DNA of 64,000 nt from Thermoplasmatota archaeon (GTDB lineage: Archaea; Thermoplasmatota; Poseidoniia; Poseidoniales; Thalassarchaeaceae). The stretch is from contig JAZANL010000025.1 of NCBI GenBank assembly GCA_036251765.1, positions 667-64,666 on the forward strand, in the 5' to 3' direction. Numbering within the stretch: position 1 is the first letter of the stretch; each line of letters opens with the position of its first letter. Position numbers and translations under genes: made by a program. Under the pieces are notes generated by a model. The model did no database searches, was not told where the DNA came from, and was given only the letters and a program-made list of their open reading frames with translations. Positions 2,321-46,540 of the stretch are shown one piece after another.

Positions 2321-2513
2321 TCCTGATTGCTCTTGCTTTAATCAAGGAAGCCTTCCCCACTGCCATCCTCCTATGAGAAACTGACCAAGAACTACCCCTC
2401 TCTCGACCTAGAGATGGTTTTATTGATTCACCTGACATATTTTCTATCAGTACGGATGAGATTACCGCAGCAATGATTCGCATGTCTCTTTCTTCCTTGC
2501 TCATGTTTCTCAC
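2307..2513 (-). CDS. Small ORF translationally coupled between carboxyltransferase and BCCP (possible small decarboxylase/carboxylase subunit)
   Basis: 68 aa. Overlaps both neighbours by 4-14 nt in operon context. No recognisable motif. Confidence 0.3.
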
Positions 2514-4096
2514 AACGGAATGTTCCCATGTTTCTTCTCGGGGCGGGGTTCTTCTTTCTCCAGAATTGCACCCAAAGCTTTGACCAACACAGACCTAGTC
2601 TCGGATGGCATGACTACATCATCGATGTATCCCAGTGCCGCAGCCTTGTACGGATTTGCAAACGTCTCCTCATAGTCGTCAACAAGCCTCTCCCTCTCTT
2701 GATCGGGGTTTCTTGAATTCGCTATCCTGCGTCTGTGAATAATTTGCACTGCACCCTCTGCACCCATAACAGCTAGTTCTGCAGAAGGCCAAGCAATGTT
2801 GTAATCTCCTCTGATGTGCTTGGAAGACATTACGTCATACGCCCCCCCATATGCCTTCCTCGTGATAACCGTGAGTTTCGGAACCGTCGCCTCAGCAAAT
2901 GCATAGAGAAGCTTGGCCCCGTGCCTAATTATTCCGCCCCATTCTTGACTTGCTCCCGGAAGAAAACCAGGGACATCAACAAATGTTAGTAGTGGTATAT
3001 TGAATGCGTCACAGAATCGAACAAATCTTGCCGCCTTTACAGATGCGTCAATATCGAGACACCCAGCTAAGTGCATCGGTTGATTTGCAACAATTCCGAT
3101 CGATTGCCCACCAAGCCGGCCCAGTCCGATGATGATATTAGGGGCATAACCATCTTGAATCTCTAAGAAACTCCCATTGTCTATGGTTTCCTCGATAACC
3201 TCCAGCATATCATACGGTATTCCAGGGTCCTCCGGGACTATCGAGTCTAGAGATTCACATTTCCTATCAAGAGAATCATTGGTATCTGAAACAGGCGCCT
3301 TTTGTAGGTTGTTCGACGGAATTAGGCCCACTAACTCCCTAACTATCTCCAATGCATCGCCATCGTCTTTTGCCGTAAAGTGAGTAACGCCTGATTTTGT
3401 GGCATGAGTGGAAGCCCCCCCCAGTTCTTCAAACCCGACTTCCTCATTAGTTACAGTCTTGATTACCTCTGGCCCCGTAATGAACATGTGCGATGTATCC
3501 TCGACCATGATCACGAAGTCCGTTATTGCCGGGGAGTATACTGCACCACCTGCGCATGGTCCCATGATAACTGATATTTGGGGTATCACTCCACTAGACC
3601 TAACATTCCTAAAGAAAATCTCTGCATAGGACCCCAGACTTGCAACTCCTTCCTGAATCCTTGCTCCTCCACTATCGTTCAATCCAATTACTGGAGCACC
3701 TGTCTTTACTGCCATGTCTAGAATCTTGCAAATCTTCAAGCCATGCATTTCTCCCAGGGAGCCACCGTAAACAGTAAAGTCCTGCGCAAAACAATAGACG
3801 AGCCTGCCATCAATCGTACCATGACCACAAACCACTCCATCCCCGGGTATCACGTTCCTATCCATATCGAAATCTCTGCACCGGTGCTCTACCAAGGCAT
3901 CAACTTCACAGAATGAATCTGGATCAAGCATCTGCTCTATTCGTTCTCTGGCAGTCATCTTTCCCTTGGCGTGCTGTGCTGAGATGCGTTTCTGCCCACC
4001 TCCAGACTGGGACTTAGACTTACGACGCCTAAGGTCCTCAATCTTGTCGGAGTTGCCACTCATGGAGTTTGGTGGGGGCAGGCCGCCCATGAGCAT
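2510..4096 (-). CDS. Acyl-CoA carboxyltransferase (propionyl-CoA carboxylase beta / methylmalonyl-CoA decarboxylase alpha family)
   Basis: 528 aa. Tandem crotonase-like carboxyltransferase halves. The match to PccB/MmdA family proteins is long-range. The true start may be the internal Met at ~4063. Confidence 0.85.
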
Positions 4097-4165
4097 TCCT
4101 AAAGTGGGGTCGATTCCATCTTCCGGTTGCTTGAAGGCGTATCACCATGTGCAACTAGTTGAAAC

Positions 4166-4603
4166 ATGCGTGTTGTTATTGCTAAACCGGGTCTTGATGG
4201 CCATGATAGAGGTGCCAAGGTAATCGCTAGAGCGCTTAGAGATGGGGGTCACGATGTCATCTACACCGGTCTGAGGAAAACCCCTTCAGACATTGTTAGG
4301 ATCGTGAATGACGAAGATGCAGAAGTACTAGGGCTATCGACTCTTTCCGGGGCCCACGACTCCCTCATCCCAAAGATTTGCGAGGGGCTTAGGCAAGGGG
4401 ATCTCGGCAAAGTAATTGTCTTTGCAGGCGGAATAATCCCTGATCGAGATCTAGAACTTCTCTATGAATCGGGGGTTCGGGCTGTTTTCGGGCCCGGCAC
4501 TCCGACTTCAGACGTCCTGGCATTCTTGGATGAAGCAATCCAAAGGAAAGAAAAAAACGATCCAATAGGAGTTGGAGACGATTTGGGGTGGCACTGGAAT
4601 TGA
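4166..4603 (+). CDS. Methylmalonyl-CoA mutase, B12-binding (C-terminal) subunit
   Basis: 145 aa. 'DGHDRGAKVIARAL' (DxHxxG cobalamin-binding motif) and a Rossmann-like B12 domain. Confidence 0.85.
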   Translation: MRVVIAKPGLDGHDRGAKVIARALRDGGHDVIYTGLRKTPSDIVRIVNDEDAEVLGLSTLSGAHDSLIPKICEGLRQGDLGKVIVFAGGIIPDRDLELLYESGVRAVFGPGTPTSDVLAFLDEAIQRKEKNDPIGVGDDLGWHWN

Positions 4604-5481
4604 GCAATATTTCCGAACTCATTGAACTAGCAAAGTCCGGAGACCGTCGAAGTTTGTCTAGGCTAATGACCAAGGTTGCAGAGTCGGAAAACGAACTAAA
4701 CCTTGAATCAGACACCATCTGGACTTTGGGAGTAACAGGCCCCCCTGGATCGGGAAAATCTACTCTGATTGGCAGATTGGCGAAGCATTGGGCAGAAAGA
4801 GGAGAGAGTGTAGCAATCTTGGCCGTTGACCCCACGTCACCAATCTCGGGAGGTTCATTTCTCGCTGACAGAATTAGGATGGGGGAGGGGGATTTGGGTG
4901 AAAGGGTGTTCGTCAGGTCTATTGCTTCGGGAAATAGCCCGGGAGGTATTTCTCCACGAATTTGGCCTATGTGCCATGCACTATCCCTCTGTGGTTGGAA
5001 ACGAATATTGATAGAAACTGTAGGAACAGGGCAATCTGAGTTCCGAATCGCCGCACTGGCTGATAGGCTTCTCCTCGTCGATGGTCCAGACAGGGGCGAC
5101 ATAATTCAGGCAGAGAAGGCAGGCATTCTGGAGCTAGCCGATGTAATTGCAGTGAACAAATCCGACCTACCCGGAGCGTCTATGACCGCTCAGAGCATTC
5201 GAACTTCTCTGGAACTCTCGGATGGTGACTCTAGGGAGGTCCTCCTAGTCTCCGCTCTAGAAGGAGTTGGAATAGGCGATTTAGTCTCAACAATAGAGGC
5301 CTGTGAACCGCATAGGGGCAAAAATAAGGTCATAATGAGGGAGATGCTAATTTCTGAATGGGATTCAATTTTGGTTTCACACCCAGAAATCGACGATATT
5401 GTCGCACAATTATGTGACAGTTCAATAACTATCGATGAAGCGATAGAATTACTAATTTCAACCATTAACGATAGCAGGTAA
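4588..5481 (+). CDS. meaB: MeaB/ArgK-type GTPase (methylmalonyl-CoA mutase metallochaperone)
   Basis: P-loop 'GVTGPPGSGKSTLIGRL' and NKxD-like 'AVNKSDL'. Overlaps the mutase small subunit by 16 nt. Confidence 0.85.
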   Translation: MALELSNISELIELAKSGDRRSLSRLMTKVAESENELNLESDTIWTLGVTGPPGSGKSTLIGRLAKHWAERGESVAILAVDPTSPISGGSFLADRIRMGEGDLGERVFVRSIASGNSPGGISPRIWPMCHALSLCGWKRILIETVGTGQSEFRIAALADRLLLVDGPDRGDIIQAEKAGILELADVIAVNKSDLPGASMTAQSIRTSLELSDGDSREVLLVSALEGVGIGDLVSTIEACEPHRGKNKVIMREMLISEWDSILVSHPEIDDIVAQLCDSSITIDEAIELLISTINDSR

Positions 5482-5485
5482 TAAT

Positions 5486-6133
5486 ATGAAAGACGGGCAA
5501 AACGACTTCTTTGTTGATCATGTTGGGCACTCAATTGGGGGTATGGGAGGGCATGCTTTCAGACGCCTAACTCATGTTTCAATGGCATCAATCCCATACC
5601 TATACTACGTGCATGGAGAGGCAATATCGTCATACTTCTCCCTGGAACCAAGCGAATTTGTCAGTGTAATTTGCATACTTATTCTTGTGATCGAGGCAAT
5701 ACGACTCAAAACCGGCATTGTCATAGTAGGACAGAGAGAATACGAATCCAACCAGATTTCCGCCTTGGCTTGGGGGGCATTGGCAGTAGCACTTGCCCTT
5801 CTGATAGCACCATTGGGAGAGCCCCTGGGGAGTATGCAAGCAGGGTTGTATGGGGCTCCAATAATTCTGGGCATGACTCTGGTGGACCCGGTTATGGGGG
5901 AGGTAAAGAGGACGAAGAAAGATCTTCGGGCAGCAATTATCGTAGGATTAGCCGTTTCTTACACAGTTTGGATGGGCTGTTATTACTGGATTGGAACCGA
6001 TTTTATCGCAGCGCTGTTGCTCGCCCCACTGACGGTTCTGGGAGAGCTCCCCCCTACTCGGGAGATCGATGATAATGCCACCATGATTCTTTTCCCCCTT
6101 GTCGGTCTCGTCCTAATACTGCCTTTCTTGTGA
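5486..6133 (+). CDS. Polytopic membrane protein, function unknown (possible dolichol kinase/CTP-transferase-like)
   Basis: 215 aa with several hydrophobic helices. 5-nt gap after meaB. No diagnostic motif. Confidence 0.4.
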   Translation: MKDGQNDFFVDHVGHSIGGMGGHAFRRLTHVSMASIPYLYYVHGEAISSYFSLEPSEFVSVICILILVIEAIRLKTGIVIVGQREYESNQISALAWGALAVALALLIAPLGEPLGSMQAGLYGAPIILGMTLVDPVMGEVKRTKKDLRAAIIVGLAVSYTVWMGCYYWIGTDFIAALLLAPLTVLGELPPTREIDDNATMILFPLVGLVLILPFL

Positions 6134-6296
6134 TTCCACTCCCGTCATGTTTACATCCTAATTTCATGCCCCAAGGCCGTGGAAATGGAGGATAACGACA
6201 CGAACTCATCGACCGAGATGTGGGAATCTCCATTGGGGCAGAGCACATACATGTTCATCTGGGCCCTCGCCTCATTGGCTTCGTTCGCTATTTTCT

Positions 6297-6557
6297 TCAA
6301 GTATTTCTAGAATTGCGGATCTTCTCTTCAACGGCTAGGAGGATAGTCTTGCCAGAAATTCCCCCAGGCCCACTGTAACCCCCAACGCTTCCATCTGAGC
6401 GAATGACCCTGTGGCAAGGGATTGAAATTGGAACAGGGTTGGAGCCACAAGCATTCGCAACTGCTCTGTAAGAGCCAGGCCTTCCAATTGCAATTGCTAT
6501 GTTCTTGTAAGTGCTGGTCTCTCCGGGTGGGATTTTGGTAATCTCTTCCCACACCAT
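6297..6557 (-). CDS. ogt: Methylated-DNA-protein-cysteine methyltransferase (Ogt), short single-domain form
   Basis: Active-site 'IPCHRVIRSDGSVGGYSGPGG' (PCHR motif). Start placed at the internal Met so as not to overlap the upstream ORF. The long ORF extends to 6689. Confidence 0.7.
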   Translation of the reverse strand: MVWEEITKIPPGETSTYKNIAIAIGRPGSYRAVANACGSNPVPISIPCHRVIRSDGSVGGYSGPGGISGKTILLAVEEKIRNSRNT

Positions 6558-6589
6558 TCTCTGAAAGGCGGTCCCTTGGATTTCTAGCG

Positions 6590-6880
6590 CTATTTCTTCT
6601 CCCACAATTCTTCGCCTTCCAACTCTTCCATTCCGACAATCTCGTAGTTTGATGGGAATAGGGCTATTGCGATTCCGATAACAATGCACCCAATACCGAA
6701 CCAGAAAGAACCCCTGATCATCAACTCCATCCCAATGGCGAATAGGATTAGACCTCCCAGGTTAGAGACCCAAACAAGAGTCTTGAATGTGGAAAGAGAA
6801 ACCCCACTTGCCCTCTTGGTCCTATGGGGGCCGAACTCTGCACCGAATCTAACCGGATCGTCATCAGCCAACTTGTTCAC
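6590..6880 (-). CDS. Small membrane protein (2 TM), tail of the bc-type operon
   Basis: 96 aa. Hydrophobic segments 'LILFAIGMELMI' and 'FGIGCIVIGIAIALF'. Start overlaps the ferredoxin stop. Confidence 0.3.
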   Translation of the reverse strand: MNKLADDDPVRFGAEFGPHRTKRASGVSLSTFKTLVWVSNLGGLILFAIGMELMIRGSFWFGIGCIVIGIAIALFPSNYEIVGMEELEGEELWEKK

Positions 6881-7209
6881 CTATCTATCATTATGATGGC
6901 ATCCGTTGGGCACGCTAGGACGCAAATCTTGCAACCAGTGCAAGGATCTCTCAGAATCCTGGCCTTCCTGTTCACATCAATATCCATTATGGGGCTTGCT
7001 AGCGGGGTGTCATAGAGCTCTATGGCGTCGTCTTCGCATACGATGGTGCACTGATCGCACCCTATGCATAATTCCTCCTTGACCCAAGCGACCGCGTCCT
7101 CACCACCTTTGAGTAAGGCCTCCTCCTCTGCTCTAACCGAGTTTAATTGAACTCTGATTCTGGATTGCTCTATCAGCCTTCTCTTCAGTACGTCACTAAC
7201 CTTGGTCAT
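6877..7209 (-). CDS. 2x[4Fe-4S] ferredoxin-domain protein
   Basis: 'CIGCDQCTIVC' and 'CTGCKICVLACP' clusters. Start trimmed to the internal Met to remove a 112-nt overlap with the upstream gene. Confidence 0.6.
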   Translation of the reverse strand: MTKVSDVLKRRLIEQSRIRVQLNSVRAEEEALLKGGEDAVAWVKEELCIGCDQCTIVCEDDAIELYDTPLASPIMDIDVNRKARILRDPCTGCKICVLACPTDAIIMIDR

Positions 7210-7220
7210 GCACCCTGCTC

Positions 7221-10034
7221 CTATGTTCGTGACTCTTCTATCTGTCTCGCAAGGAAGCTGACAACGTCCAGAATCTCGAAGTCGTGACGAGGGTCTCCCT
7301 CGAACTTCAAGCATTCGAAGTGAGCTACACACTTGGGGCAGGAGGTAAGCATGATGTCTGCACCGGTGGCCCTCACTTCGTCGAACCTCTGGACTCTGAG
7401 TGCCCTGCTGTTCTCATTGCATGACATCATGCTTGATACTCCGCAGCAGAGGGCATCTTCTCCAGTGTGCTCCATCTCAACTAGATTGACTCCATCTACA
7501 GAGCCAACGAGGTCACGTGGCTCATCGTAGATGTTCATCTGCCTGCCTAGGCGACATGGGTCGTGATACGTCACGGTCACCTCGTCGTCCGTCTTCAGTT
7601 CCATGTCAAATCCATTCTCGATTAGGAACTCTGTAGTGTGCATGACCTTCATGTCGTCTAACTCGTAGTCTAGTGCGAATGTCCTGAAGCACTCCGCGCA
7701 AGATGTTACTAGGGTCTCGATTCCGCTCTCGCCCAACTTCTTCTGGTTGTACGACTTGAGCTTCTCGAAGACTTCGGTCATTCCCTGCCACTTCTGATCG
7801 TGTCCACAGCACTTCAGGAAGTCCCTACCAAGGTACGTTACTTCCTCGCCCATTTCCTCGAAGATAGTGAATGCGGAAGTAGTGGCATCCCCAAGATCCA
7901 TGCTTCCCTTATTCACATGGCTGAACACCATTTCTTGGTCAATGTAGTCGACGCAGCCAGGGTAGTATCCAATGCTGGAGTCAAGCGGATAGTCCTCAAC
8001 GGGAATGAATGCATCATCAGCATCTTCCTCTGCCTCTGCGGCTAGAACGGCCTGAAGGACAGTGTGTGGAATCTCGGTAGCAGGCGGACCTCCGACAACG
8101 AGGTTTCTCCTGATGTCGATATATGAGTCATAATCAACAAGCTGTGGGCATGCGTTAGTGCACGCTGTACAGGTCAAGCAGGAGTAAAGTGGGACTCCGT
8201 CGTCTTCGTTGTTCCATGTGTTGTATATGATGTTCAGCTTGTCACCAGCGTTGAACAGCCTTACCGGGCACGCATCATCACAAAGGTCGCAGCCATAGCA
8301 CTTGTTCATCTCCCACTCGTAGCCCCTAGCCATGCTCCTTAGCATAACGAAGACAAGTGCTCCCACGCCCAGGCATGGGATGAACATGGAGTAGATTAGC
8401 TTAGCATCCAGGCTCTTCGGATTCTTCTCGTAAGTCGGATTGGTGATTGACATCTCGGACAACTCCTCGTCACTGAGGCCAACTTCGGAACGGATTACAG
8501 CCGTACCATCCTCGGCGAGTAGAAGTGGTTGATACGCGACTGCAGAGAAGTCGGAAATCATCGTGACGCTTTCGTTGACCCCTTCTGAAGTGGTAGTGAA
8601 GGTTATGGTGTATGAAAATCCAGAGTCTAGGTATATTGTCCCGGAGTCGCAGGATGCCCCCTCATTCATCCATAGCGTCTCGCCAGCTTCATCGGTAAGC
8701 ACGAGACTCTGCGTGTGCAAACCAGCCCCGCGAACTGTGGTTCTGAAGTTACAACCTACGTCGGTCGGCACGCTCGCGACTCCCAAGTTTTCTACTTCGA
8801 ACTGAATTGACTCTGTGATTTCGATAACGGATCCGTCTTGCGCTCCTTCGTATATTATCTCGTTAGCACCTATGTTCCTGGAAGTTTGAGAATCGGCATG
8901 GCCGTTGGCTCCGCTGAAGTCGATAATCTTGCTTCTTGTAGGCTGGAATATCCCCCAGTTAACCCAATGCTTAGCCGGAATTACGCACCATTCGCTATGT
9001 TCAGTTCCCTCTTCCATCGAGTCCCAAGCAGAAAGTGAACTCGTTTGCTCGTAAGGCAGGCAATCATCCTCCCATTCCTCCCAAACGGGAACCTCACCTG
9101 CATGGATTAGCGTATCTCCTGGCTGGCCTCTTATGCCGTCTAACTCCTCTATCTTGGCATCGTATTGGTACTCCCAGAACCCCATAGTGCCCAATCCTCG
9201 CTGATTCCAGAATCCGTTCTCGTACACAGGCCATGTTACTGTGCACAAAAGTACTGTAGCAACCAAAGACCCAACTGCCACCTGTCTTCCCAATACTGGA
9301 GTTAGTCTGGATCCCAGGGGGCCAATCAGGAATTTCCTCACCGAGAAGTAAAGAACAGTGAAAATGAAAACCCCCGTGAGTATCCATGGAATTGCATTGA
9401 ACACTTCCGCGGTCCATGGCGATTGTGTGCCGCAATTGAAACCGCCATGGGCGCTAGACCAACAATAGTCGGTCCTATTTTGAGCATACATTTCCAGGAA
9501 GATGTTTATTGAGAACACGGAGATGAACCAGACGTGAGCGAGATATACTGCCCCAGCCGTCGCAAACCAGGGGTCCTCAACCCCCCTCTTCTCCCTTTTT
9601 CCAATGATGAATGGGGGTAGTGCTAGTATTCCCACTGGTAGTCCGGTGATCATTGCACCCCAGACTCCAGCATTCCAGGAAACAATCGGTTGCCCGAAGA
9701 ACTCACCTATGGGGCCAGCGGGTATGTCGAATTGAGGTAGGTATTCGCCCCACCTCAGATAACCGTAGGAGAACAAAACATACCAATCTGGAAAGACGAA
9801 TCCGGCCTGGGCATATGGGTCTGCTGCATTGTGCAGTGGGGGCGGTATGATCCACGAGTAGAATGCGATCACCATGACAATGGCTGCGAAGATGATTGTG
9901 TCTCTGAGGACTTCAGTGGGCCAGAAAGCATGCCCTGTGAACACCCTCTTCCGTTCTTCTTCTGCTCCCAGCAACTGCTCCTTCTCATCGATGTAGGTAT
10001 CAGCAATCCTCCCAAATCTCTCTATCATGCCCAT
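7221..10034 (-). CDS. Fusion protein of three parts: cytochrome b subunit-IV-like N-domain (Qo 'PDWY' motif), large extracytoplasmic domain, and C-terminal HdrD/GlpC-like 2x[4Fe-4S] + CCG-domain module
   Basis: 937 aa. N-terminus has 'PDWYVLFSYGYLRW' (PEWY-type Qo motif) and ~6 TM helices. Central ~300-aa Thr/Ser/Gly-rich soluble domain, then one TM. C-terminal 'CYGCDLCDDACPV' and 'CLTCTACTNACP' iron-sulfur motifs. Two CCG-type cysteine motifs ('KCCGHD', 'LCCGVS'). Confidence 0.75.
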   Translation of the reverse strand: MGMIERFGRIADTYIDEKEQLLGAEEERKRVFTGHAFWPTEVLRDTIIFAAIVMVIAFYSWIIPPPLHNAADPYAQAGFVFPDWYVLFSYGYLRWGEYLPQFDIPAGPIGEFFGQPIVSWNAGVWGAMITGLPVGILALPPFIIGKREKRGVEDPWFATAGAVYLAHVWFISVFSINIFLEMYAQNRTDYCWSSAHGGFNCGTQSPWTAEVFNAIPWILTGVFIFTVLYFSVRKFLIGPLGSRLTPVLGRQVAVGSLVATVLLCTVTWPVYENGFWNQRGLGTMGFWEYQYDAKIEELDGIRGQPGDTLIHAGEVPVWEEWEDDCLPYEQTSSLSAWDSMEEGTEHSEWCVIPAKHWVNWGIFQPTRSKIIDFSGANGHADSQTSRNIGANEIIYEGAQDGSVIEITESIQFEVENLGVASVPTDVGCNFRTTVRGAGLHTQSLVLTDEAGETLWMNEGASCDSGTIYLDSGFSYTITFTTTSEGVNESVTMISDFSAVAYQPLLLAEDGTAVIRSEVGLSDEELSEMSITNPTYEKNPKSLDAKLIYSMFIPCLGVGALVFVMLRSMARGYEWEMNKCYGCDLCDDACPVRLFNAGDKLNIIYNTWNNEDDGVPLYSCLTCTACTNACPQLVDYDSYIDIRRNLVVGGPPATEIPHTVLQAVLAAEAEEDADDAFIPVEDYPLDSSIGYYPGCVDYIDQEMVFSHVNKGSMDLGDATTSAFTIFEEMGEEVTYLGRDFLKCCGHDQKWQGMTEVFEKLKSYNQKKLGESGIETLVTSCAECFRTFALDYELDDMKVMHTTEFLIENGFDMELKTDDEVTVTYHDPCRLGRQMNIYDEPRDLVGSVDGVNLVEMEHTGEDALCCGVSSMMSCNENSRALRVQRFDEVRATGADIMLTSCPKCVAHFECLKFEGDPRHDFEILDVVSFLARQIEESRT

Positions 10035-10043
10035 CTTATCACC

Positions 10044-10916
10044 TCAGTGCGGCTCCGCAATTCCCTGAACCCAGACGATGAAAAGATGCGCCAATATGAG
10101 AACAGTAACAATTAGCGGTAATACGAAGACATGGAGGAAATACATCCGGACCACTGTCTGCCCTGTTAGGGTCGTCCCCCCGAACATCGCATTAGCGACC
10201 CACTCCCCAACAAGTGGTGTGGCCATTGCCATGTTTATGCCAATCGTAGCCGCACCGAAGGCTAGACTGTCCCATGGAAGTAGATAGCCTGAGTAACCGA
10301 AGAAAATGGAGAAGAACATCAGAGCGACCCCGATTAACCAGTTTAGCTCCCTGGGGTTCCTGTATGCCCCAGTGAAGTAAACTCGGCACATATGGAGGAA
10401 GACCGCAGCCACGAAGAAGTGTGTACCCCAGTGATGGATTGATCTGATGATGTATCCGAAAGGCAACTCCAACATGATGAACTCCATTGACGCATAGGCA
10501 GGGGTCGGATCAGAATTCAGATCCCCTCCCGGTACGTAGTAGAAGCCTAGAATTGTGCCTGTGATCACTAGGATGATGAAAGCGATGAAAGATATCCCGC
10601 CCAAGCAGTATAGGGGATACCAGTACCAGATTATCCTGAGTTTGTATTTCTCGGCATGAGTGAGCGGCATCTGCCTGTGCATGCTGTAGTAAGAGTCCCT
10701 GCTCATTCCCCAGTAATCCTGGATTCTGAATCTTGTGTCCAACCAGGAGAAGGCCCAGAGGAACAACTTCTCTGCGAGACCCATGCTTCCAGCATTCGTC
10801 TCCACTGCCCTAAGTATGTCCTTTCGAGGCATGTCGTCTCGCTCCCTCCTTAGGGTGAATGCGAAAATAACGACAACAACCGCGATGAAAATCCACAAGA
10901 ACCAGAATTGTATCAT
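10044..10916 (-). CDS. Cytochrome b (b6-like N-terminal haem-binding part of a split cytochrome b)
   Basis: 290 aa, polytopic. Conserved His pairs in TM helices ('HHWGTHFFVAAVFLHMCRVYFTGAYR'). Sits immediately upstream of the subunit-IV-like fusion gene. Confidence 0.8.
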   Translation of the reverse strand: MIQFWFLWIFIAVVVVIFAFTLRRERDDMPRKDILRAVETNAGSMGLAEKLFLWAFSWLDTRFRIQDYWGMSRDSYYSMHRQMPLTHAEKYKLRIIWYWYPLYCLGGISFIAFIILVITGTILGFYYVPGGDLNSDPTPAYASMEFIMLELPFGYIIRSIHHWGTHFFVAAVFLHMCRVYFTGAYRNPRELNWLIGVALMFFSIFFGYSGYLLPWDSLAFGAATIGINMAMATPLVGEWVANAMFGGTTLTGQTVVRMYFLHVFVLPLIVTVLILAHLFIVWVQGIAEPH

Positions 10917-10924
10917 TTTTTCAC

Positions 10925-11797
10925 CTAACCGCAGAATGTGTACCAGTCCATGAAGTCTGGAAGGGCCTCTATGGTGCCCCCATTAACAGTGAACGGTATT
11001 AGGGGCATCCCATAAGGTGCAGGGCCACCGGTCTTCTTCACTCCGATGAAATCGAACTCTTGCCCATTTGATCTATTTCTGGCTGTGTTCTTTTCTATCA
11101 CCGTGTGGTCGTACCTACTAGAGTGGCAAATGCAGAACGACTTGTTTCCACTTGAATCGGTTCCGCCGGGCAACCAGCTATCGGCCGTGAAGTCATTGTT
11201 GACTAATTGCCAGCCTGGTATGCAACACAGGTGGGGGCATCTAGCAAAAACGATAATCATGTTATTGTGGATATTAAGTGACGCATATTCCTCCTTTTCC
11301 TCAATCTCGAAACCGGATCCGACATAAGCCCCTCCGGCAGTGTAACCATCCATTAGCTGGAACCGGGGAGTGTCTGCTTCCAATGGTTTGTTCTTGTTCT
11401 CCTCGTGAGGGACATAGGTTGCGATAATCGGCAATCCAGACCATAGGCCGGCAGCCCCTACCATTCCTGTTGTTGAATTTGCGGATTCGTCGATGAACGC
11501 TTGCATGGTCATGGGTTGCTTGTCCATGTTACCATACCAAACATCGGATCCTTTTGGGACATAGAATTTGATCGATGAGTCAGAGCCACCGCCTTCAGCC
11601 TGCCCCATTAGGAATGAGGCAAAACCCACGCCACCCAGTGCGGCTGTTGTAATTAGTCCAGCAGCGGTATTGAATGACAGCCTCATGAACTCCCTCCTGT
11701 CGATGACCCCACTCTTCTCGTGGTGACTCACATTTTGTGTTTCGATCGGACGTAATTTGAACTTCCTCGCCATGGTCAGACCTCGTATTTCTTCCAA
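10925..11797 (-). CDS. Rieske [2Fe-2S] iron-sulfur protein with Tat signal
   Basis: Twin-arginine-type N-terminus 'RREFMRLSF...'. Rieske boxes 'CPHLCC' and 'CICHSSRYD'. Confidence 0.8.
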   Translation of the reverse strand: MEEIRGLTMARKFKLRPIETQNVSHHEKSGVIDRREFMRLSFNTAAGLITTAALGGVGFASFLMGQAEGGGSDSSIKFYVPKGSDVWYGNMDKQPMTMQAFIDESANSTTGMVGAAGLWSGLPIIATYVPHEENKNKPLEADTPRFQLMDGYTAGGAYVGSGFEIEEKEEYASLNIHNNMIIVFARCPHLCCIPGWQLVNNDFTADSWLPGGTDSSGNKSFCICHSSRYDHTVIEKNTARNRSNGQEFDFIGVKKTGGPAPYGMPLIPFTVNGGTIEALPDFMDWYTFCG

Positions 11798-12225
11798 GAA
11801 TTAGTGTCATGGCTAGTGATGTACTTGTTCCTTCTGTGTTTAACAATCACCACATCCGGAAGTACGTACTTCAAGTACACTATCCCCATGATAATCAGGG
11901 TAAGTAGAGTCATTGCCAGATTGAATGAAAGTAACTGCTGGTCCCAATTGTTGTACAAACCGTAAGCCAGTGCGCCAGCCCAATAGAGTGTCCACATTAG
12001 TCCCCATAGGCCGACTAGGATGATTAGCCAAGAGTCACCAGAAGGTGCCAGACTGGCTCTTACTATGGTGCCCGGCTTGACCTCGTTGAAGACACCGTGA
12101 TCAACCGCCGCTGCGAAGGACTCCTCCGTCAGCGTGGCCTCTTCAAGAGCCACTCTGGCGTCCTCGACGCTAACTTCTCCCGACTTAACTTGTCGAAGTA
12201 GCCTCATCACCACATCGTCTTTCAT
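11776..12225 (-). CDS. Small membrane protein (2 TM) of the Rieske/cyt b operon
   Basis: 149 aa. Hydrophilic N-domain followed by two TM helices. Overlaps neighbours by 4-22 nt. Confidence 0.4.
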   Translation of the reverse strand: MKDDVVMRLLRQVKSGEVSVEDARVALEEATLTEESFAAAVDHGVFNEVKPGTIVRASLAPSGDSWLIILVGLWGLMWTLYWAGALAYGLYNNWDQQLLSFNLAMTLLTLIIMGIVYLKYVLPDVVIVKHRRNKYITSHDTNSWKKYEV

Positions 12226-13025
12226 AGTTGATCGCCTCTCCTTAGATGCTTTATTCTTAGCCTCAGTAGATTACTTCTCCCTTCGTAATGCCTGGAGAAA
12301 CCGTATCTCAGGAAAAGCCCACAGAATAGGATTACCAGCATCACGGCCCCAAATCCAAGAAGCCCAAGCCAGTGGGCCAAGAGTTTGGCACCCATGTGAT
12401 GGAGATCAGTGTGACTCTCAACCGGTGCCGGAGGGGTGATGTCCCCATTTCCAGAGAAAACCGTCCTAGTTCTTCCGTTGTCCTCACCTTCGTCGAAGCT
12501 AGTAGTTAGGCGATTCCATCTATCTAGGCTTGATGGCGCCATGTCCCCATTTACCGAATTTCCAGCGACCATGAAGTCTACAGTCCCAGAACCCTCCGCG
12601 GGGCTCACCCACCGGAACAACCATGATCTGTCAGAGGTCCTTGAACCGGCATCTGTGTGAGTAAGTGTGGTCGGGTCATCTTCCCAGTTCTGGACAAGAC
12701 CTTCTGATCCTTCCGAAGGCTCTAGTGAACCAACACTAACTTTCATCGAGAAACCTCCCGTGTAGGACTCAAGATCGGCCTCAGGTCCGCCGATGAGTTG
12801 TAACTTCATCTCATATGCTGTTTCTGGGGCATAATGGAAAGGAACCCCGTCAAGAATCACGGTAACCGAATTGTCCGGCTCCTCAGCATGGCATGTGCAT
12901 CCTGCAAGGGCGACATCGCCCTGTCCATTTGCATTACCCCCCACTCCTGTGTGCAAAGCCTGGCCAGAACCCGCAACAAAAACAGTCACCAAAATAAGTA
13001 CGATTGTTTTCTGTCGCGATGCCAT
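12222..13025 (-). CDS. Secreted, C-terminally membrane-anchored protein; first gene of the Rieske/cyt b operon (possible redox partner)
   Basis: 267 aa. N-terminal signal/TM 'TIVLILVTVFVAGSG'. C-terminal TM 'LLGFGAVMLVILFCGLFL'. Cys pair 'GCTCH' near the N-terminus. Confidence 0.4.
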   Translation of the reverse strand: MASRQKTIVLILVTVFVAGSGQALHTGVGGNANGQGDVALAGCTCHAEEPDNSVTVILDGVPFHYAPETAYEMKLQLIGGPEADLESYTGGFSMKVSVGSLEPSEGSEGLVQNWEDDPTTLTHTDAGSRTSDRSWLFRWVSPAEGSGTVDFMVAGNSVNGDMAPSSLDRWNRLTTSFDEGEDNGRTRTVFSGNGDITPPAPVESHTDLHHMGAKLLAHWLGLLGFGAVMLVILFCGLFLRYGFSRHYEGRSNLLRLRIKHLRRGDQL

Positions 13026-13089
13026 CTTACTTCACCTAGCATCTGCTAATGCCGCTTCCAAAAAAAAGGGGGATATTAACGTTCCACCC

Positions 13090-13106
13090 CGGCCCCTACG
13101 GGGCCG
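13090..13106. promoter_or_regulatory. GC hairpin (CGGCCCC-TAC-GGGGCCG) plus A8/T8 run in the divergent intergenic region between the bc-type operon and the TPR/FtsZ-like pair
   Basis: Perfect 7-bp inverted repeat at 13090-13106. A8 (T8 on the minus strand) at 13062-13069, ~35-42 nt upstream of the minus-strand operon ATG. Confidence 0.25.
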
Positions 13107-13158
13107 AACAAAATTGTCGCTAGAAAAGAACCAAACACCCCTGTTAGGGACGAGTATT

Positions 13159-13464
13159 ATGGGAGCCCCGCGGTGGAAGAACATTTACGATCTCACTCCC
13201 GACCAAATAGAAAAATTGGAGGAAGCCGAGGACAAAATGGAATCCATGGAGATAAACGAATCCGAGAGGATTCTATTGGCTCTTCTGGAGGATGACGAGA
13301 ATTGCATTCCCGTTTTGAATATCCTAGGGCACCTACATGGCCGGTACCTTTCTGATTTTGAAGCATCGATCGAGTACTACGACAGAGTTCTGGAACTTGA
13401 GCCTGATAACGCCTGGGCAAGAGACGAAAGGAGGAGATACAGGCGTTATGTTACATATGATTAG
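13159..13464 (+). CDS. Small TPR-like helical protein, upstream partner of the FtsZ-like gene
   Basis: ~102 aa from the internal Met. TPR-like 'ASIEYYDRVLELEPDNAWAR'. The 5' part of the long ORF overlaps the opposite-strand operon and was discarded. Confidence 0.4.
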   Translation: MGAPRWKNIYDLTPDQIEKLEEAEDKMESMEINESERILLALLEDDENCIPVLNILGHLHGRYLSDFEASIEYYDRVLELEPDNAWARDERRRYRRYVTYD

Positions 13465-13499
13465 AACAGAATAATCTAGTCAGTCGCACGCGGGGCCTC

Positions 13500-14405
13500 A
13501 TGGAGCAAGGCTCTATTCTGATAGTAGGGGTTGGCGGGATAGGTTGCCAGTGGTCCGGAGGGGCCCACGATAAATGCCAAGAGCTAGCAGATCTGCTAAT
13601 GATAGATGCCGATGAATCCTCATTTTCTTCCGAACACGAGGCCCATTGCCTGCACTTAGACGCCAGCGGTAGTGCGAGAGGCGCAGCGGCACTGCCAAAC
13701 CTTGCTGCTCACCGCCTCAACGAGGGCATCGGAAACATCTCCGCGCTATTGGAGAAATCAGAATTAGTAATATTGTTGGCGGCATTAGGCGGTGGGACCG
13801 GTTCGGGGGCAACTGCAGAGATTGCAGCAAAATCACGTGAGTCCGGTAGTTTGGTGATCAGCATAGTTGGAGTGCCATTCGCAGAGCAACCACTAAGATG
13901 CGCAATAGCAGAGAAAGCGCTCCCCGCAATTGAGAGAAATTCAGATTTATGCATTCGAGTGAGTCTCGAGAGGCTCGCTTGGCAGGCCAGGCACCGGGAC
14001 TCGGATTGGAAGCTAGGATCGGAATGGATTGGCGAGCTGATCGAGGGACTCGTGACGACTCTGGCAAGAGTCGGTAAGATGAACCTCGATTTGATGGACC
14101 TGCGGACAGTCGTTGGTAGGCCAGGAAATGCTACTCTAATCGTTGGAAACGGTACTACGGACGATCCTGATGGGGTTGTTAGGATGGCGAGAAACTCCCC
14201 CCTGTCTGAGATTGCTGTAGACGGCGCAAAGGGTTGCCTAATCCAAGTGGAGGGGGGACCAGACATGACTCTCGGCCACCTAAATAGGGTCTCTGAGGCA
14301 TTCGTCTCCACTCTAGATTATGACTGTCAGGTAATACTAGGCGCTAGAGCTAGTGAAGATATGGCAGGACGGCTTCGTCTTGTTGCTGTAGTTAGTGGCC
14401 TCTAG
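13500..14405 (+). CDS. Divergent FtsZ/tubulin-superfamily GTPase
   Basis: 301 aa. T1-like 'ILIVGVGGIGCQW', tubulin signature 'GGGTGSGA', T7-like 'NLDLMDLRTVVG', then '...ATLIVGNG'. Confidence 0.7.
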   Translation: MEQGSILIVGVGGIGCQWSGGAHDKCQELADLLMIDADESSFSSEHEAHCLHLDASGSARGAAALPNLAAHRLNEGIGNISALLEKSELVILLAALGGGTGSGATAEIAAKSRESGSLVISIVGVPFAEQPLRCAIAEKALPAIERNSDLCIRVSLERLAWQARHRDSDWKLGSEWIGELIEGLVTTLARVGKMNLDLMDLRTVVGRPGNATLIVGNGTTDDPDGVVRMARNSPLSEIAVDGAKGCLIQVEGGPDMTLGHLNRVSEAFVSTLDYDCQVILGARASEDMAGRLRLVAVVSGL

Positions 14406-26929: not shown

Positions 26930-27889
26930 TTGGGTTTTCTTCAAAGTCACACCCTTCGCCCTAGATCTATGGAAGAGGCGTTGCGGGATCTTCTCAGAAT
27001 AAAAGCTGTTAACCTCCGCACCCAGAAAGTGGGCTCTGTAGCGCCCGGCTTCACCTTCCTGGGCGTCGCCAATGCAATCCCAGATTTGGAAATACACTCG
27101 AATGAGGTTTTTATTTGGCATGCCAAAGCCGGAATATTGCCAATCACTGAGAGTGAGATAATCAGGTTTGGAATGGATGCACCCAATGGCCTCAACATAA
27201 TCCTGAGTGAAAGGCCCGTTCATTCGGAATGCCACTCGGTAGCTACTTTCAATTTCAGAATTCTTGAACCCGAGGAAGTTTCCATGTGGGTCGGAAAGGC
27301 CGTTCTATCAGGAGATTTGATTGCAACCGCTAAGGATGAAGTAGAGGACCAAATGGAACGATTAGAACATGAAAAAAGAACCCAGAAACTGTTAGTTCTG
27401 AACCCAGTCATTGAGATCAAGGAATGGTCTTCACAACGTGGAATGGATGGTTTCTCTTCAACCCCCATTCTCCTAAGGGCACGACTGTGGTCGGTATCGG
27501 GGGAATTGAAAGGGCCCGATGGTGAAAGAGAATCCGGTGAATGGGTGATTCTTGAGGATCCGTGGTCAAAAACCGTGTCTCTAATGAATGATATTCACAA
27601 TCTCCGCCAGGCACCAATTCTGAGGACTATTGAACCACAGAATTCCAATTGGCTTACTCCTGATAGGATAAATCAAGAATTGTCCAAAGCCATCGAGGAA
27701 AGGAGGAGAGGGGGCTCAGGAGAGATCAGTGATTCAGGAACCGTCCGTAGCATGCTTCTACAGAAATGGTCTTTGGACTCCGAAAGAGCCAGAATTGCCG
27801 ATTGCAAGATAATGATTCCTGGATGGCTAATACACTTTGAATCCGAAAAGATTCTGCACGGACGTAACGGTCGCCTATACGATTACTAA
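26930..27889 (+). CDS. Hypothetical protein (319 aa) occupying the position where nusA/rps12/rps7 normally follow rpl30e
   Basis: Long ORF with ordinary composition. No recognisable motif. Start uncertain (internal Met at ~26969 is possible). Confidence 0.4.
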   Translation: MGFLQSHTLRPRSMEEALRDLLRIKAVNLRTQKVGSVAPGFTFLGVANAIPDLEIHSNEVFIWHAKAGILPITESEIIRFGMDAPNGLNIILSERPVHSECHSVATFNFRILEPEEVSMWVGKAVLSGDLIATAKDEVEDQMERLEHEKRTQKLLVLNPVIEIKEWSSQRGMDGFSSTPILLRARLWSVSGELKGPDGERESGEWVILEDPWSKTVSLMNDIHNLRQAPILRTIEPQNSNWLTPDRINQELSKAIEERRRGGSGEISDSGTVRSMLLQKWSLDSERARIADCKIMIPGWLIHFESEKILHGRNGRLYDY

Positions 27890-28749: not shown

Positions 28750-28808
28750 CTACCCTCAGAGATGCCCAATTGAAGCCTCCATTTAAGGAATACCGAGTTT
28801 TTACACCC

Positions 28809-43884: not shown

Positions 43885-43887
43885 AAA

Positions 43888-46520: not shown

Positions 46521-46540
46521 CCGAATAGCCTCGCAGTCAT

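What the first reader, a model, noticed from the sequence alone, without database searches (positions are those of the whole stretch)
6297..13025. Rieske / split cytochrome b operon whose subunit-IV-like partner is fused to an HdrD/GlpC-like iron-sulfur CCG module
Seven to eight co-directional, mostly overlapping minus-strand genes:
- a secreted anchored protein,
- a 2-TM protein,
- a Tat-signal Rieske protein (CPHLCC/CICHSSRYD),
- cytochrome b6-like (His-pair haem helices),
- a 937-aa fusion,
- a 2x[4Fe-4S] ferredoxin,
- a small membrane protein,
- possibly ogt.
The PDWY (PEWY-type) Qo motif sits in the fusion protein, not in the cyt b gene. The quinol-oxidation site is therefore shared between two polypeptides, as in b6f. 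The second polypeptide also carries 2x[4Fe-4S] plus two CCG cysteine motifs, which are characteristic of heterodisulfide-reductase HdrD, GlpC and SdhE.
This wiring of a Rieske/cyt b quinol oxidase to a thiol-disulfide/CCG-type catalytic unit is, to my knowledge, not a described complex type. The absence of any cytochrome c1/f-like haem-c protein is also unusual for a bc complex.
Basis: partly seen in the sequence, partly recalled or inferred. Interest (0 to 1): 0.8.

Follow-up and report, generated by a model that had tools for sequence, protein, structure and literature searches.

The report
Marine archaeal Rieske–b6 complex with HdrD
This is the conserved respiratory "complex III" operon of Marine Group II archaea: a cytochrome b6f-like quinol oxidase whose second membrane subunit is fused to a heterodisulfide-reductase-like iron-sulfur module that most likely faces the cytoplasm, probably giving ferredoxin-level electrons a direct route into (or out of) the quinone cycle; the gene set has been mentioned in passing before but never dissected or tested.

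Summary
Seven co-directional minus-strand genes (6590-13025) form an operon conserved across Marine Group II (Poseidoniales):
- a secreted, anchored protein
- a DUF7318 2-TM protein
- a Tat-signal Rieske protein
- a cytochrome b6 with the CxGG haem-cn cysteine
- a 937-aa fusion of subunit IV (PDWY), an ecto-domain, 2x[4Fe-4S] and 2xCCG
- an RnfB-like 2x[4Fe-4S] ferredoxin
- a small 2-TM protein

ogt is only a neighbour.

Profile searches show the fusion's N-terminus is a cytochrome b C-terminal/subunit IV homologue. Its C-terminus is 43% identical to soluble HdrD-like proteins of Methanoperedens. By hydropathy and the positive-inside rule, the Fe-S module sits on the cytoplasmic side, next to haems bn/cn.

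The same core (DUF7318, Rieske, b6, subunit IV-HdrD) occurs in about 20 other archaeal loci. There it is followed by ferredoxin, MvhD, HdrA-like or FrhB-like partners.

It is not wholly undescribed. Diamond et al. 2022 noted hdrD-like and rnfB-like genes beside complex III in Angelarchaeales and suggested ferredoxin entry. Tully 2019 noted an MGII-specific complex III.

The supposedly missing cytochrome c1/f slot is probably filled by the first gene. Its anchor is homologous to that of the blue-copper subunit of relatives, and it has a Reeler/cytochrome f-like fold and an invariant CxCH.

Verdict: a new variant of a known kind. Direction and substrate are untested.

The parts
13026..13159 (-). 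Intergenic region upstream of the first gene; probable operon promoter (TTAATAT box about 50 nt and AGGTGA about 10 nt upstream of the ATG). Inferred only.
   Evidence: Sequence read. The divergent TPR/FtsZ-like genes on the + strand are syntenic in L088 and L089.
12222..13025 (-). Secreted, C-terminally anchored 267-aa subunit (choice-of-anchor-V / Reeler-like beta-sandwich) with an invariant GCxCH (aa 42-46, nt 12888-12902). Candidate p-side electron acceptor that replaces the blue-copper subunit of relatives.
11776..12225 (-). 149-aa 2-TM protein (DUF7318), a conserved accessory subunit.
   Evidence: PF24002 E=5.5e-6, at the cut-off. A DUF7318 gene lies directly upstream of Rieske in L001, L002, L005, L007 and L054 and in most other loci.
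10925..11797 (-). Tat-exported Rieske [2Fe-2S] protein (likely start at 11773); CPHLCC at aa 187, CICH at aa 222.
   Evidence: Orthologues in L002 and L054 share the CxHLCC box and the C-terminal DWY..C motif.
10044..10916 (-). Cytochrome b6-type four-helix di-haem cytochrome b with an extra N-terminal TM. Cys104 in YCLGG is the haem-cn attachment position; His161/175 and His262/277 are the haem ligands.
9225..10034 (-). Fusion protein aa 1-270: subunit IV / cytochrome b C-terminal homologue, five TM helices, Qo motif PDWY (nt 9780-9791).
8400..9224 (-). Fusion protein aa 271-545: MGII-specific extracytoplasmic beta-sandwich insert, with no cofactor motif and poor conservation.
8337..8399 (-). 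Fusion protein aa 546-566: sixth TM helix, which returns the chain to the cytoplasm.
   Evidence: Hydropathy and K+R distribution.
7221..8336 (-). Fusion protein aa 567-937: HdrD-like module. It has 2x[4Fe-4S] (nt 8145-8300) and two CCG domains (nt 7689-7955 and 7329-7556). Predicted cytoplasmic.
   Evidence: PF02754 2.1e-22 and Fer4 families. 43% identity over the full length to the Methanoperedens HdrD-like protein. PDB 9ojn_A at 8.7e-21. It is the most conserved part of the protein.
6877..7209 (-). 110-aa 2x[4Fe-4S] ferredoxin-like subunit (RnfB-like domain); start taken as the ATG at 7209.
   Evidence: The same position is occupied by ferredoxin, Fer4+MvhD or HdrA-like proteins in relatives.
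6590..6880 (-). 96-aa small 2-TM protein, a conserved last gene of the operon.
   Evidence: Homologous to the small protein at the same position in L001 (BLASTP E=2e-6). Also present in L005, L088 and L089; L054 has a similar small TM protein at that position, judged by eye only.

Best explanation
Shown or strongly supported: the operon encodes the Marine Group II version of a b6f-type Rieske/cytochrome b quinol oxidase. Quinol is oxidised at a Qo site built from cytochrome b6, the PDWY loop of the subunit IV part of the fusion, and the Tat-exported Rieske protein.

Inferred from topology: after helices E-H, one further helix, an ecto-domain and a sixth helix, the same polypeptide continues on the cytoplasmic (n) side. 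There it forms an HdrD-like module with two cubane clusters and two CCG (non-cubane-type) cluster sites. This module is joined by a dedicated 2x[4Fe-4S] RnfB-like subunit. Together they would form an iron-sulfur wire ending at the haem bn/haem cn (Qi) end of the low-potential chain.

Most likely function (inferred, direction untested): reduced ferredoxin, or another low-potential cytoplasmic donor, delivers electrons through the ferredoxin-like subunit and the HdrD-like module to haem cn/bn and so to quinone at Qi. Complex III thereby becomes a second entry point for ferredoxin-level electrons. It would be a hard-wired counterpart of the ferredoxin-to-plastoquinone route proposed for b6f in cyclic electron flow.

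On the p side, the Rieske cluster passes electrons to the first operon protein. That protein keeps the membrane anchor of the blue-copper subunit of related archaea but carries a Reeler/cytochrome f-like head with an invariant CxCH, whose cofactor is unknown. From there electrons go to the terminal oxidase.
For: - Core identity: the complex parts are identified.
- Haem-cn position: the cysteine (YCLGG) aligns with Cys35 of solved b6.
- Topology: six hydrophobic segments, with K+R counts of 7/1/4/1 in the first four alternating loops, put the N-terminus and the Fe-S module inside. The compact homologues have four TM helices before the Fe-S module, which gives the same side.
- Selection: across MGII, the Fer4 part (0.93 mean pairwise identity) and the CCG part (0.80) are more conserved than the membrane part (0.70).
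- Synteny: the order DUF7318, Rieske, b6, subunit IV-HdrD is kept in about 20 distinct archaeal loci. The gene immediately downstream always encodes a cytoplasmic electron-transfer protein. Examples are an RnfB-like ferredoxin (MGII; L054, L061), Fer4+MvhD (L001, L005), FAD-oxidoreductase+Fer4+MvhD (L007, L080), HdrC/B/A+MvhD (L003, L004) and FrhB+HdrA+MvhD (L002).
- Closest relatives of the module: soluble HdrD-like proteins encoded with hdrCBA.
- Literature: the ferredoxin-entry idea was put forward independently for the Angelarchaeales locus (PMC9038741). The orphan RnfB of MGII was noted in PMC6336850.
Against: - Direction of electron flow is not addressed by any result here.
- All ten CCG cysteines are conserved. 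This fits a catalytic disulfide/thiol site at least as well as a passive wire.
- No multimer model was possible, so the distance from the first cluster to haem cn/bn is unknown.
- The RnfB-like match is below NCBIfam's cut-off (41.7 against 68.7 bits).
- Whether MGII makes reduced ferredoxin in catabolism was not examined; the window holds no such genes.
- HdrA/MvhD partners in relatives can work in either direction.
- The haem-cn cysteine is missing in the Geothermarchaeales homologue (YYLGS).
Confidence: 0.45

Rival explanations
1. Reverse direction: a quinol-bifurcating reductase. Oxidation of (mena)quinol at Qo sends one electron uphill in potential to Rieske and on to the oxidase. The low-potential electron on haem bp/bn is not only recycled at Qi but is drawn off through the HdrD-like module. 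There it reduces a cytoplasmic disulfide at the CCG site, or ferredoxin via the RnfB-like subunit. This would be HdrDE chemistry powered by the Q-cycle bifurcation, as proposed for NAD(P)H generation by anammox Rieske/cytochrome b complexes.
For: Both CCG cluster sites are complete and strongly conserved. In HdrDE-type enzymes (established knowledge) electrons run from haem b to [4Fe-4S] to CCG to disulfide, and the domain order here is the same. PDWY goes with low-potential quinone systems (PMC4122944), and from such quinols direct disulfide reduction would be uphill (own knowledge). There is an anammox precedent for Rieske/cytochrome b complexes credited with producing low-potential reductant (PMC12954380 abstract).
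Against: No candidate disulfide substrate is known in MGII, which are not methanogens. Aerobic heterotrophs usually need to dispose of reduced ferredoxin, not make it. The retained haem-cn cysteine suggests a working Qi site that would compete for the same electron. No thiol-metabolism gene is conserved in the operon; GshA is near it only in L088 and L089.
Confidence: 0.25
2. Thiol:quinone oxidoreductase built into complex III. The CCG site oxidises a low-molecular-weight or protein-bound dithiol, and electrons enter the quinone pool via haem cn/bn (reverse HdrDE). The small ferredoxin acts only as an additional relay.
For: The CCG ligand set is intact. A GcvH-type lipoyl-carrier gene and further CCG proteins lie in the Geothermarchaeales cluster. 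Reverse HdrDE with menaquinone has been proposed for Methanoperedens (PMC4683180).
Against: The thiol-related neighbours are not conserved between lineages. The one partner that is conserved is a ferredoxin-type or HdrA/MvhD-type electron carrier.
Confidence: 0.12
3. An ordinary quinol:acceptor oxidoreductase. The Fe-S module is not on the catalytic path and serves a structural, assembly or redox-sensing role.
For: No functional data exist. Rieske/cytochrome b complexes often carry lineage-specific accessory subunits (PMC4683180, citing ten Brink 2013).
Against: The Fe-S part is the most conserved region of the protein. It is always accompanied by a further cytoplasmic redox protein. Six Fe-S clusters would be costly for a purely structural role.
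Confidence: 0.1
4. The 937-aa fusion is an assembly or gene-calling artefact that joins a subunit IV gene to an hdrD gene.
For: In some relatives the module is split: in L054, subunit IV+Fer4 (461 aa) and a separate CCG protein (325 aa).
Against: The 120 best-scoring homologues listed are 73-94% identical and cover 94-100% of the query (all but one at 99-100%). They come from independent sources, with clusters of up to 699 member sequences, and some sit on contigs of up to 1.5 Mb. The reading frame in the window is uninterrupted.
Confidence: 0.01

Closest known systems
Cytochrome b6f / Bacillus-type b6c menaquinol oxidoreductases (split cytochrome b with haem cn)
   Same: Tat-exported Rieske protein. 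Four-helix b6 with 14- and 15-residue His spacing and the CxGG cysteine. The Qo motif lies on a separate subunit IV polypeptide.
   Different: Subunit IV is extended by two or three helices and a cytoplasmic HdrD-like Fe-S module, plus an ecto-domain in MGII. There is no CxxCH cytochrome f/c. DUF7318, a ferredoxin-like subunit and a small 2-TM subunit take the place of PetG/L/M/N.
Complex III-like locus of Ca. Angelarchaeales (Diamond et al. 2022, PMC9038741)
   Same: The same system. The gene order is BCP, DUF7318, Rieske, b6, subunit IV-Fer4, CCG, RnfB-like, small TM in soil Thermoplasmata MAGs including EA_ isolates (L047, L050, L054). The ferredoxin-entry idea was already voiced there.
   Different: In the passages I read, the paper speaks of an 'hdrD-like gene' proximal to complex III and does not mention fusion to subunit IV. 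In at least some of those loci the CCG part is a separate gene. MGII has the whole HdrD fused, adds an ecto-domain, and swaps the copper head of the p-side subunit for a choice-of-anchor-V domain.
HdrDE heterodisulfide reductase and other cytochrome b + CCG enzymes (DsrMK, and PDB 9ojn 'iron-sulfur-binding reductase')
   Same: A membrane b-type cytochrome coupled to a 2x[4Fe-4S] + 2xCCG cytoplasmic module. 43% identity to the Methanoperedens HdrD-like protein. 9ojn_A matches at E=8.7e-21.
   Different: The membrane partner here is a Rieske/b6/subunit IV Q-cycle machine, not a NarI-type di-haem cytochrome b (established knowledge for HdrE and DsrM). The host is an aerobic non-methanogen, so the substrate cannot be assumed to be CoM-S-S-CoB.
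Cytochrome b proteins fused to Fe-S/MvhD or flavoprotein domains (PDWF-FeS clade of Kao & Hunte 2014; subfamily H of Dibrova et al. 2017)
   Same: Cytochrome b of the bc family joined covalently to non-Rieske Fe-S domains.
   Different: Those have PDWF, a long unsplit cytochrome b and no Rieske gene in the cluster. Here the motif is PDWY, cytochrome b is split, and a Rieske gene is always present.
Anammox Rieske/cytochrome b complexes with cytoplasmic NAD(P)-oxidoreductase-type subunits
   Same: The idea that the n-side of a Rieske/cytochrome b complex is coupled to a soluble low-potential redox module (PMC12954380 abstract).
   Different: Different partner proteins and a bacterial lineage. 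No subunit IV-HdrD fusion is reported there. This comparison was not tested here beyond the literature.

Membership tests
Rieske/cytochrome b complex, b6f type | Rieske [2Fe-2S] protein with CxH...CxxH boxes, exported by Tat | tested here: met
   CPHLCC (aa 187), CICH (aa 222) and RREFMR (aa 34). TIGR01416 E=4.5e-8, below its cut-off. The boxes align with PDB 7yr9. No Pfam Rieske hit at E<=0.1.
Rieske/cytochrome b complex, b6f type | Four-helix cytochrome b with two His pairs (helices B and D) | tested here: met
   PF00033 1.9e-41. All four His align with b6 His86/100/187/202. Positions are 161/175 and 262/277.
Rieske/cytochrome b complex, b6f type | CxGG cysteine for covalent haem cn | tested here: met
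   YCLGG aligns with FYCLGG of solved b6. Actual haem attachment is not testable here.
Rieske/cytochrome b complex, b6f type | Separate subunit IV carrying the PEWY-type Qo loop | tested here: met
   Profile A3 against PDB gives subunit IV 6e-11 and cytochrome b C-terminal halves 4e-15. 28 of 37 relatives hit PF00032. PDWY is invariant.
Rieske/cytochrome b complex, b6f type | c-type cytochrome (f or c1) as third redox subunit | tested here: not met
   No CxxCH in any operon protein. The slot is probably filled by the choice-of-anchor-V protein.
HdrD (catalytic subunit of HdrDE heterodisulfide reductase) | N-terminal 2x[4Fe-4S] ferredoxin domain plus two CCG domains with five Cys each | tested here: met
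   43% identity to a Methanoperedens HdrD-like protein.
HdrD (catalytic subunit of HdrDE heterodisulfide reductase) | Partner is the NarI-type cytochrome b HdrE | tested here: not met
   The partner is a b6-type cytochrome plus Rieske. No other cytochrome b gene was seen in the parts of the window that were annotated.
HdrD (catalytic subunit of HdrDE heterodisulfide reductase) | Reduces CoM-S-S-CoB | not testable with these tools
   Needs an enzyme assay. MGII are described as aerobic heterotrophs (PMC6336850).
RnfB (ferredoxin-binding subunit of Rnf) | Full RnfB architecture within an rnfABCDEG cluster | tested here: not met
   Only a 2x[4Fe-4S] domain. TIGR01944 scores 41.7 bits against a cut-off of 68.7. 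No other rnf genes in the operon. MGII lack RnfACDEG (PMC6336850).
Cytochrome f | CxxCH haem-c site near the mature N-terminus | tested here: not met
   The motif is an invariant C-x-C-H, lying roughly 20 residues after the cleavage site I infer by eye from the signal-peptide region (no predictor was run).
Cytochrome f | Large-domain beta-sandwich fold with a C-terminal TM anchor | tested here: inconclusive
   [not shown]
PDWF-FeS clade of cytochrome b (Kao & Hunte 2014) | PDWF motif, long cytochrome b fused to Fe-S/MvhD, no Rieske gene in the cluster | tested here: not met
   PDWY, split cytochrome b, and a Rieske gene always adjacent, against the description.

The most novel reading that the evidence does not exclude
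The complex is a natural, hard-wired ferredoxin (or HdrA-module) to haem cn to quinone reductase inside a b6f-type enzyme. That would make it a tractable model for the long-debated ferredoxin:plastoquinone reductase activity of b6f. In relatives that carry HdrA/MvhD/FrhB partners, it would physically couple quinone-based bifurcation at Qo with flavin-based bifurcation at HdrA in a single membrane enzyme. In addition, its p-side subunit would carry a previously unknown CxCH-based redox cofactor site on a cytochrome f/Reeler-like fold.
Probability: 0.3. Interest if true: 0.85.

Novelty: new variant of a known kind. Interest (0 to 1): 0.62.

Why it matters
- Abundance: Marine Group II archaea are among the most abundant planktonic archaea. 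This operon is their only recognisable complex III (PMC6336850) and is widespread in ocean metagenomes.
- Energy budgets: if the cytoplasmic Fe-S arm exchanges electrons with haems bn/cn, the energy budget of these organisms, and of soil Angelarchaeales, must be redrawn. Ferredoxin-level electrons would enter or leave at complex III rather than only at complex I.
- Mechanism: it would be a covalently fixed version of an n-side electron input at haem cn. That process has been argued over for decades for chloroplast b6f (own knowledge).
- Evolution: the series of relatives shows stepwise module exchange on both faces of a conserved Rieske/b6 core. On the cytoplasmic face the partner is a ferredoxin only, Fer4+MvhD, or a full HdrABC/FrhB set. 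On the outer face the head is copper, multihaem, or CxCH.

Tried and rejected
- Direct Pfam and single-sequence PDB searches of the fusion's N-terminal 300 aa gave nothing significant (E=0.28 to subunit IV). The homology needed distant homologues and a profile.
- The MGII ecto-domain (aa 271-545) was modelled in the hope of finding a cupredoxin or cytochrome. Only generic beta-sandwich matches came back.
- A profile of the first operon protein against PDB sequences found no cytochrome f or any other relative.
- The N-terminal Big_5-containing extensions of cytochrome b in L001 and L005 are not choice-of-anchor-V domains by NCBIfam.
- P0364, a 437-aa protein joining the first operon protein to a Rieske domain, looked like a supporting fusion. 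Its second half is glycine-rich with a differently built Rieske part, so I judged it a probable chimeric contig and discarded it.
- ogt was rejected as an operon member.
- No Rfam family matches in 5500-14000.
- The rest of the window holds housekeeping and catabolic genes and, in the ORFs that were annotated, no further respiratory or cytochrome-c-maturation genes.
- Literature searches for a described subunit IV-HdrD fusion found none. A search on Reeler domains and redox cofactors was uninformative.

Full report
**1. The observation**

Seven of them are packed with junctions of -4, -22, 8, 9, 11 and -4 nt. The -22 overlap disappears if Rieske starts at the ATG at 11773.

The homologues carry source names such as Candidatus Thalassarchaeum, Thalassarchaeaceae and Poseidoniaceae, which places the window in Marine Group II archaea. 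The 120 best-scoring homologues of the 937-aa protein that were listed are 73-94% identical and cover 94-100% of it (all but one at 99-100%). Some sit on contigs of up to 1.5 Mb, and many come from Tara Oceans. The fusion is therefore real and abundant.

The same seven-gene operon, with the same flanking FtsZ-like/TPR and MeaB/B12 genes, is found in a Poseidoniaceae genome (L088) and in another MGII contig (L089). ogt follows it in the window and in L088 but not in L089, so ogt is a neighbour and not a member. No Rfam family matches the region.

**2. The Rieske/cytochrome b core**

- Cytochrome b (10044-10916) matches PF00033 at 1.9e-41.
- Among solved structures it is closest to cytochrome b6 (E=1e-41).
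- The four haem histidines are aligned, at positions 161/175 and 262/277. These are the b6-type 14- and 15-residue spacings.
- The motif YCLGG aligns on FYCLGG, the cysteine that binds haem cn in b6f.
- Rieske (10925-11797) is divergent. It has no Pfam hit and matches TIGR01416 at only 4.5e-8.
- It nonetheless has both cluster boxes (CPHLCC, CICH) and an RREFMR twin-arginine signal.

**3. The fusion protein**

Direct searches of the first 300 residues fail. There is no Pfam hit, and subunit IV of b6f matches at only E=0.28.

An exhaustive search against cluster representatives gave 93 relatives. Of 37 distant ones, 28 match PF00032 (cytochrome b C-terminal/PetD), and nearly all carry PDWY. A profile built from N-terminal domains, including the window's, hits the C-terminal halves of solved cytochromes b at 4e-15. 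It hits b6f subunit IV at 6e-11, in the correct register. The subunit IV identity is thus established by transitive and profile evidence.

The C-terminal 370 residues carry two CxxCxxCxxxCP motifs and two complete CCG motifs, ten cysteines in all. They are 43% identical over their whole length to a soluble 345-aa HdrD-like protein encoded directly upstream of hdrC, hdrB and hdrA in Methanoperedens. The best solved relative is 9ojn_A, an 'iron-sulfur-binding reductase'.

Between the two parts lie a fifth helix, a 275-residue insert and a sixth helix. The insert models confidently (pLDDT 85.5) as a generic beta-sandwich with no cofactor signature, and it is poorly conserved.

Hydropathy and the positive-inside rule give K+R counts of 7, 1, 4 and 1 in the first four successive loops. 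This places the N-terminus and the Fe-S module in the cytoplasm and the insert outside. That is an inference, but the compact homologues give the same answer, because they have four helices before the Fe-S module.

Across MGII, the Fer4 part (0.93 mean pairwise identity) and the CCG part (0.80) are better conserved than the membrane part (0.70) or the insert (0.42). The Fe-S arm is therefore under strong selection.

**4. The wider family**

Compact versions of 543-630 aa have subunit IV, 2x[4Fe-4S] and 2xCCG but no insert. They occur in Thermoplasmata, in MAGs labelled Methanomassiliicoccales, and in Candidatus Geothermarchaeales.

In about 20 distinct loci the order DUF7318, Rieske, cytochrome b6, subunit IV-HdrD is invariant. 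What varies is the module on each face.

On the cytoplasmic side, the next gene(s) encode one of the following:
- an RnfB-like ferredoxin (MGII, L054, L061)
- a 508-521-aa Fer4+MvhD protein (L001, L005)
- an FAD-oxidoreductase plus Fer4 plus MvhD (L007, L080)
- HdrC-, HdrB- and HdrA-like proteins plus MvhD (L003, L004)
- FrhB-like, HdrA-like and MvhD proteins, followed by further CCG, GcvH and GlcD-like genes (L002)

In some loci the module is split into subunit IV+Fer4 (461 aa) and a separate CCG protein (325 aa). A small 2-TM protein closes the operon both in MGII and in L001, L005 and L054.

**5. The 'missing' cytochrome c1/f**

No operon protein has CxxCH. However, the first gene (12222-13025) is not just 'a secreted anchored protein'.

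- Family and conservation: it matches NCBIfam choice-of-anchor-V (4.6e-23). It is conserved in MGII with invariant GCxCH, H123, H209, M211 and H218, and with an almost invariant transmembrane anchor and cytoplasmic tail.
- A shared anchor with a variable head: in eight Thermoplasmata loci the gene at the same position, immediately upstream of DUF7318, encodes a protein of about 210 aa. It has a Cys-x-Pro/Tyr-His-x3-4-Met copper-type motif and a C-terminal anchor, LRAYWIGLLGF...SSRHY...HIRRG.
- That anchor is clearly homologous to the MGII anchor, LLAHWLGLLGF...FSRHY...HLRRG (BLASTP E=7e-8). In L003 a pentahaem cytochrome c carries a similar anchor (AYWLGSVAF). In L007 and L080 a cupredoxin is fused to cytochrome b itself.
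- Agreement with the literature: this fits Diamond et al., who found a plastocyanin-like gene upstream of Rieske in 23 of 30 Angelarchaeales loci. The first MGII gene therefore occupies the slot of the p-side electron acceptor, with a swapped head domain.
- Architecture: the layout resembles cytochrome f. It has a signal peptide, a Cys/His motif roughly 20 residues after the cleavage site I infer by eye, a beta-sandwich and a C-terminal helix. However, CxCH is not, to my knowledge, a known haem-c motif, so the cofactor (haem, copper or none) is open.

**6. Mechanism**

The architecture supports a b6f-type Q-cycle enzyme whose n-side end (haems bn and cn, the Qi pocket) is extended into the cytoplasm. 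The extension would hold six Fe-S clusters: four in the HdrD-like module and two in the ferredoxin-like subunit.

I favour electron entry (confidence about 0.45). In this model, reduced ferredoxin or an equivalent donor feeds quinone at Qi through this wire, as Diamond et al. suggested for Angelarchaeales. It would also explain the 'orphan RnfB' of MGII. In relatives, HdrA/MvhD/FrhB modules would use the membrane haems and quinone as the high-potential acceptor.

The main rival (about 0.25) is the reverse. The low-potential electron from Qo bifurcation would be drawn off to reduce a disulfide at the intact CCG site, or to reduce ferredoxin. That would be HdrDE chemistry driven by the Q cycle, analogous to proposals for anammox complexes.

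A thiol:quinone reading (about 0.12) and a non-catalytic role (about 0.1) remain possible.

Nothing computed here fixes the direction, the substrate, or the distance between the first cluster and the haems.

**7. Comparison with what is known, and novelty**

- It is a member of the Rieske/cytochrome b superfamily of the b6f type. It meets every sequence criterion tested except the c-type cytochrome.
- It contains an HdrD-like module but is not an HdrDE enzyme, because the membrane partner differs.
- It is not the PDWF-FeS clade of Kao & Hunte, which has an unsplit cytochrome b and no Rieske.
- The locus has been noticed twice in passing.
- In the papers I could search, I found no description of the fusion of subunit IV to HdrD, the haem-cn/n-side logic, the family-wide synteny, the modular partners, or the anchor-conserved head swap on the p side.

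I therefore rate it a new variant of a known kind, of solid but not exceptional surprise. It has a realistic chance of becoming a useful model for n-side electron input into b6f-type complexes.

Noticed in passing
[not shown]
   Followed up: partly
window 8400-9224 (-); L089 7001-11005: The MGII-specific extracytoplasmic insert in the fusion protein is the least conserved part (0.42 identity). It varies in size: P0240 and P0268 are 1334-1349 aa, and the BLAST hits suggest additional inserted material in L089.
   Followed up: partly
window 10632-10916 (-): The MGII cytochrome b6 has an N-terminal extension of about 95 residues with an extra hydrophobic helix (aa 4-22). This is absent from the 239-256-aa b6 of the compact systems. 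In L001 and L005 the extension is instead about 640 aa with Big_5 domains and a CNNTEACH motif just after the signal peptide.
   Followed up: no
L054 6863-9222; P0157, P0188, P0190: In some Thermoplasmata the HdrD-like module is split into subunit IV+2x[4Fe-4S] (about 450 aa) and a separate 2xCCG protein. These look like HdrC-like and HdrB-like halves, which suggests stepwise fusion.
   Followed up: partly
L002 1274-1993: The Geothermarchaeales cytochrome b6 homologue has YYLGS instead of YCLGG. It lacks the haem-cn cysteine although it has the subunit IV-HdrD fusion and an FrhB/HdrA/MvhD partner set.
   Followed up: no
window 6297-6689 (-): The ogt ORF (PF01035 1.2e-30) overlaps the preceding small membrane-protein gene by 100 nt as called and is only 130 aa, against 169 aa in L088. 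Its true start is probably further downstream, or the N-terminal domain is reduced.
   Followed up: no
window 2510-5481 and 52625-54196: Methylmalonyl-CoA pathway genes are split between two places in the window: a carboxyltransferase, a biotin carrier, a B12-binding domain and MeaB next to the operon, and the mutase large subunit at 52.6 kb. The MeaB/B12 neighbourhood of the operon is syntenic in L088 and L089.
   Followed up: no
window 42847-48067 (+): A histidine-utilisation cluster (formiminotransferase, urocanase, histidine ammonia-lyase), consistent with the amino-acid-degrading lifestyle of MGII.
   Followed up: no
window 27886-30595 (-) and 34497-35483 (+): Three paralogous DUF7121 proteins lie close together, next to a CARDB-domain protein and an iron-dependent repressor. 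Function unknown.
   Followed up: no
L088 10962-12197; L089 11652-12842: A GshA-family glutamate-cysteine ligase gene and an asparagine-synthase-like gene lie just downstream of the operon in two other MGII genomes but not in the window. This is a possible hint at a low-molecular-weight thiol in MGII, which would be relevant to the CCG site.
   Followed up: no
P0364: A 437-aa database protein joins the first 225 aa of the MGII anchored protein to a glycine-rich linker and a differently built Rieske domain. It is most likely a chimeric metagenome contig.
   Followed up: yes
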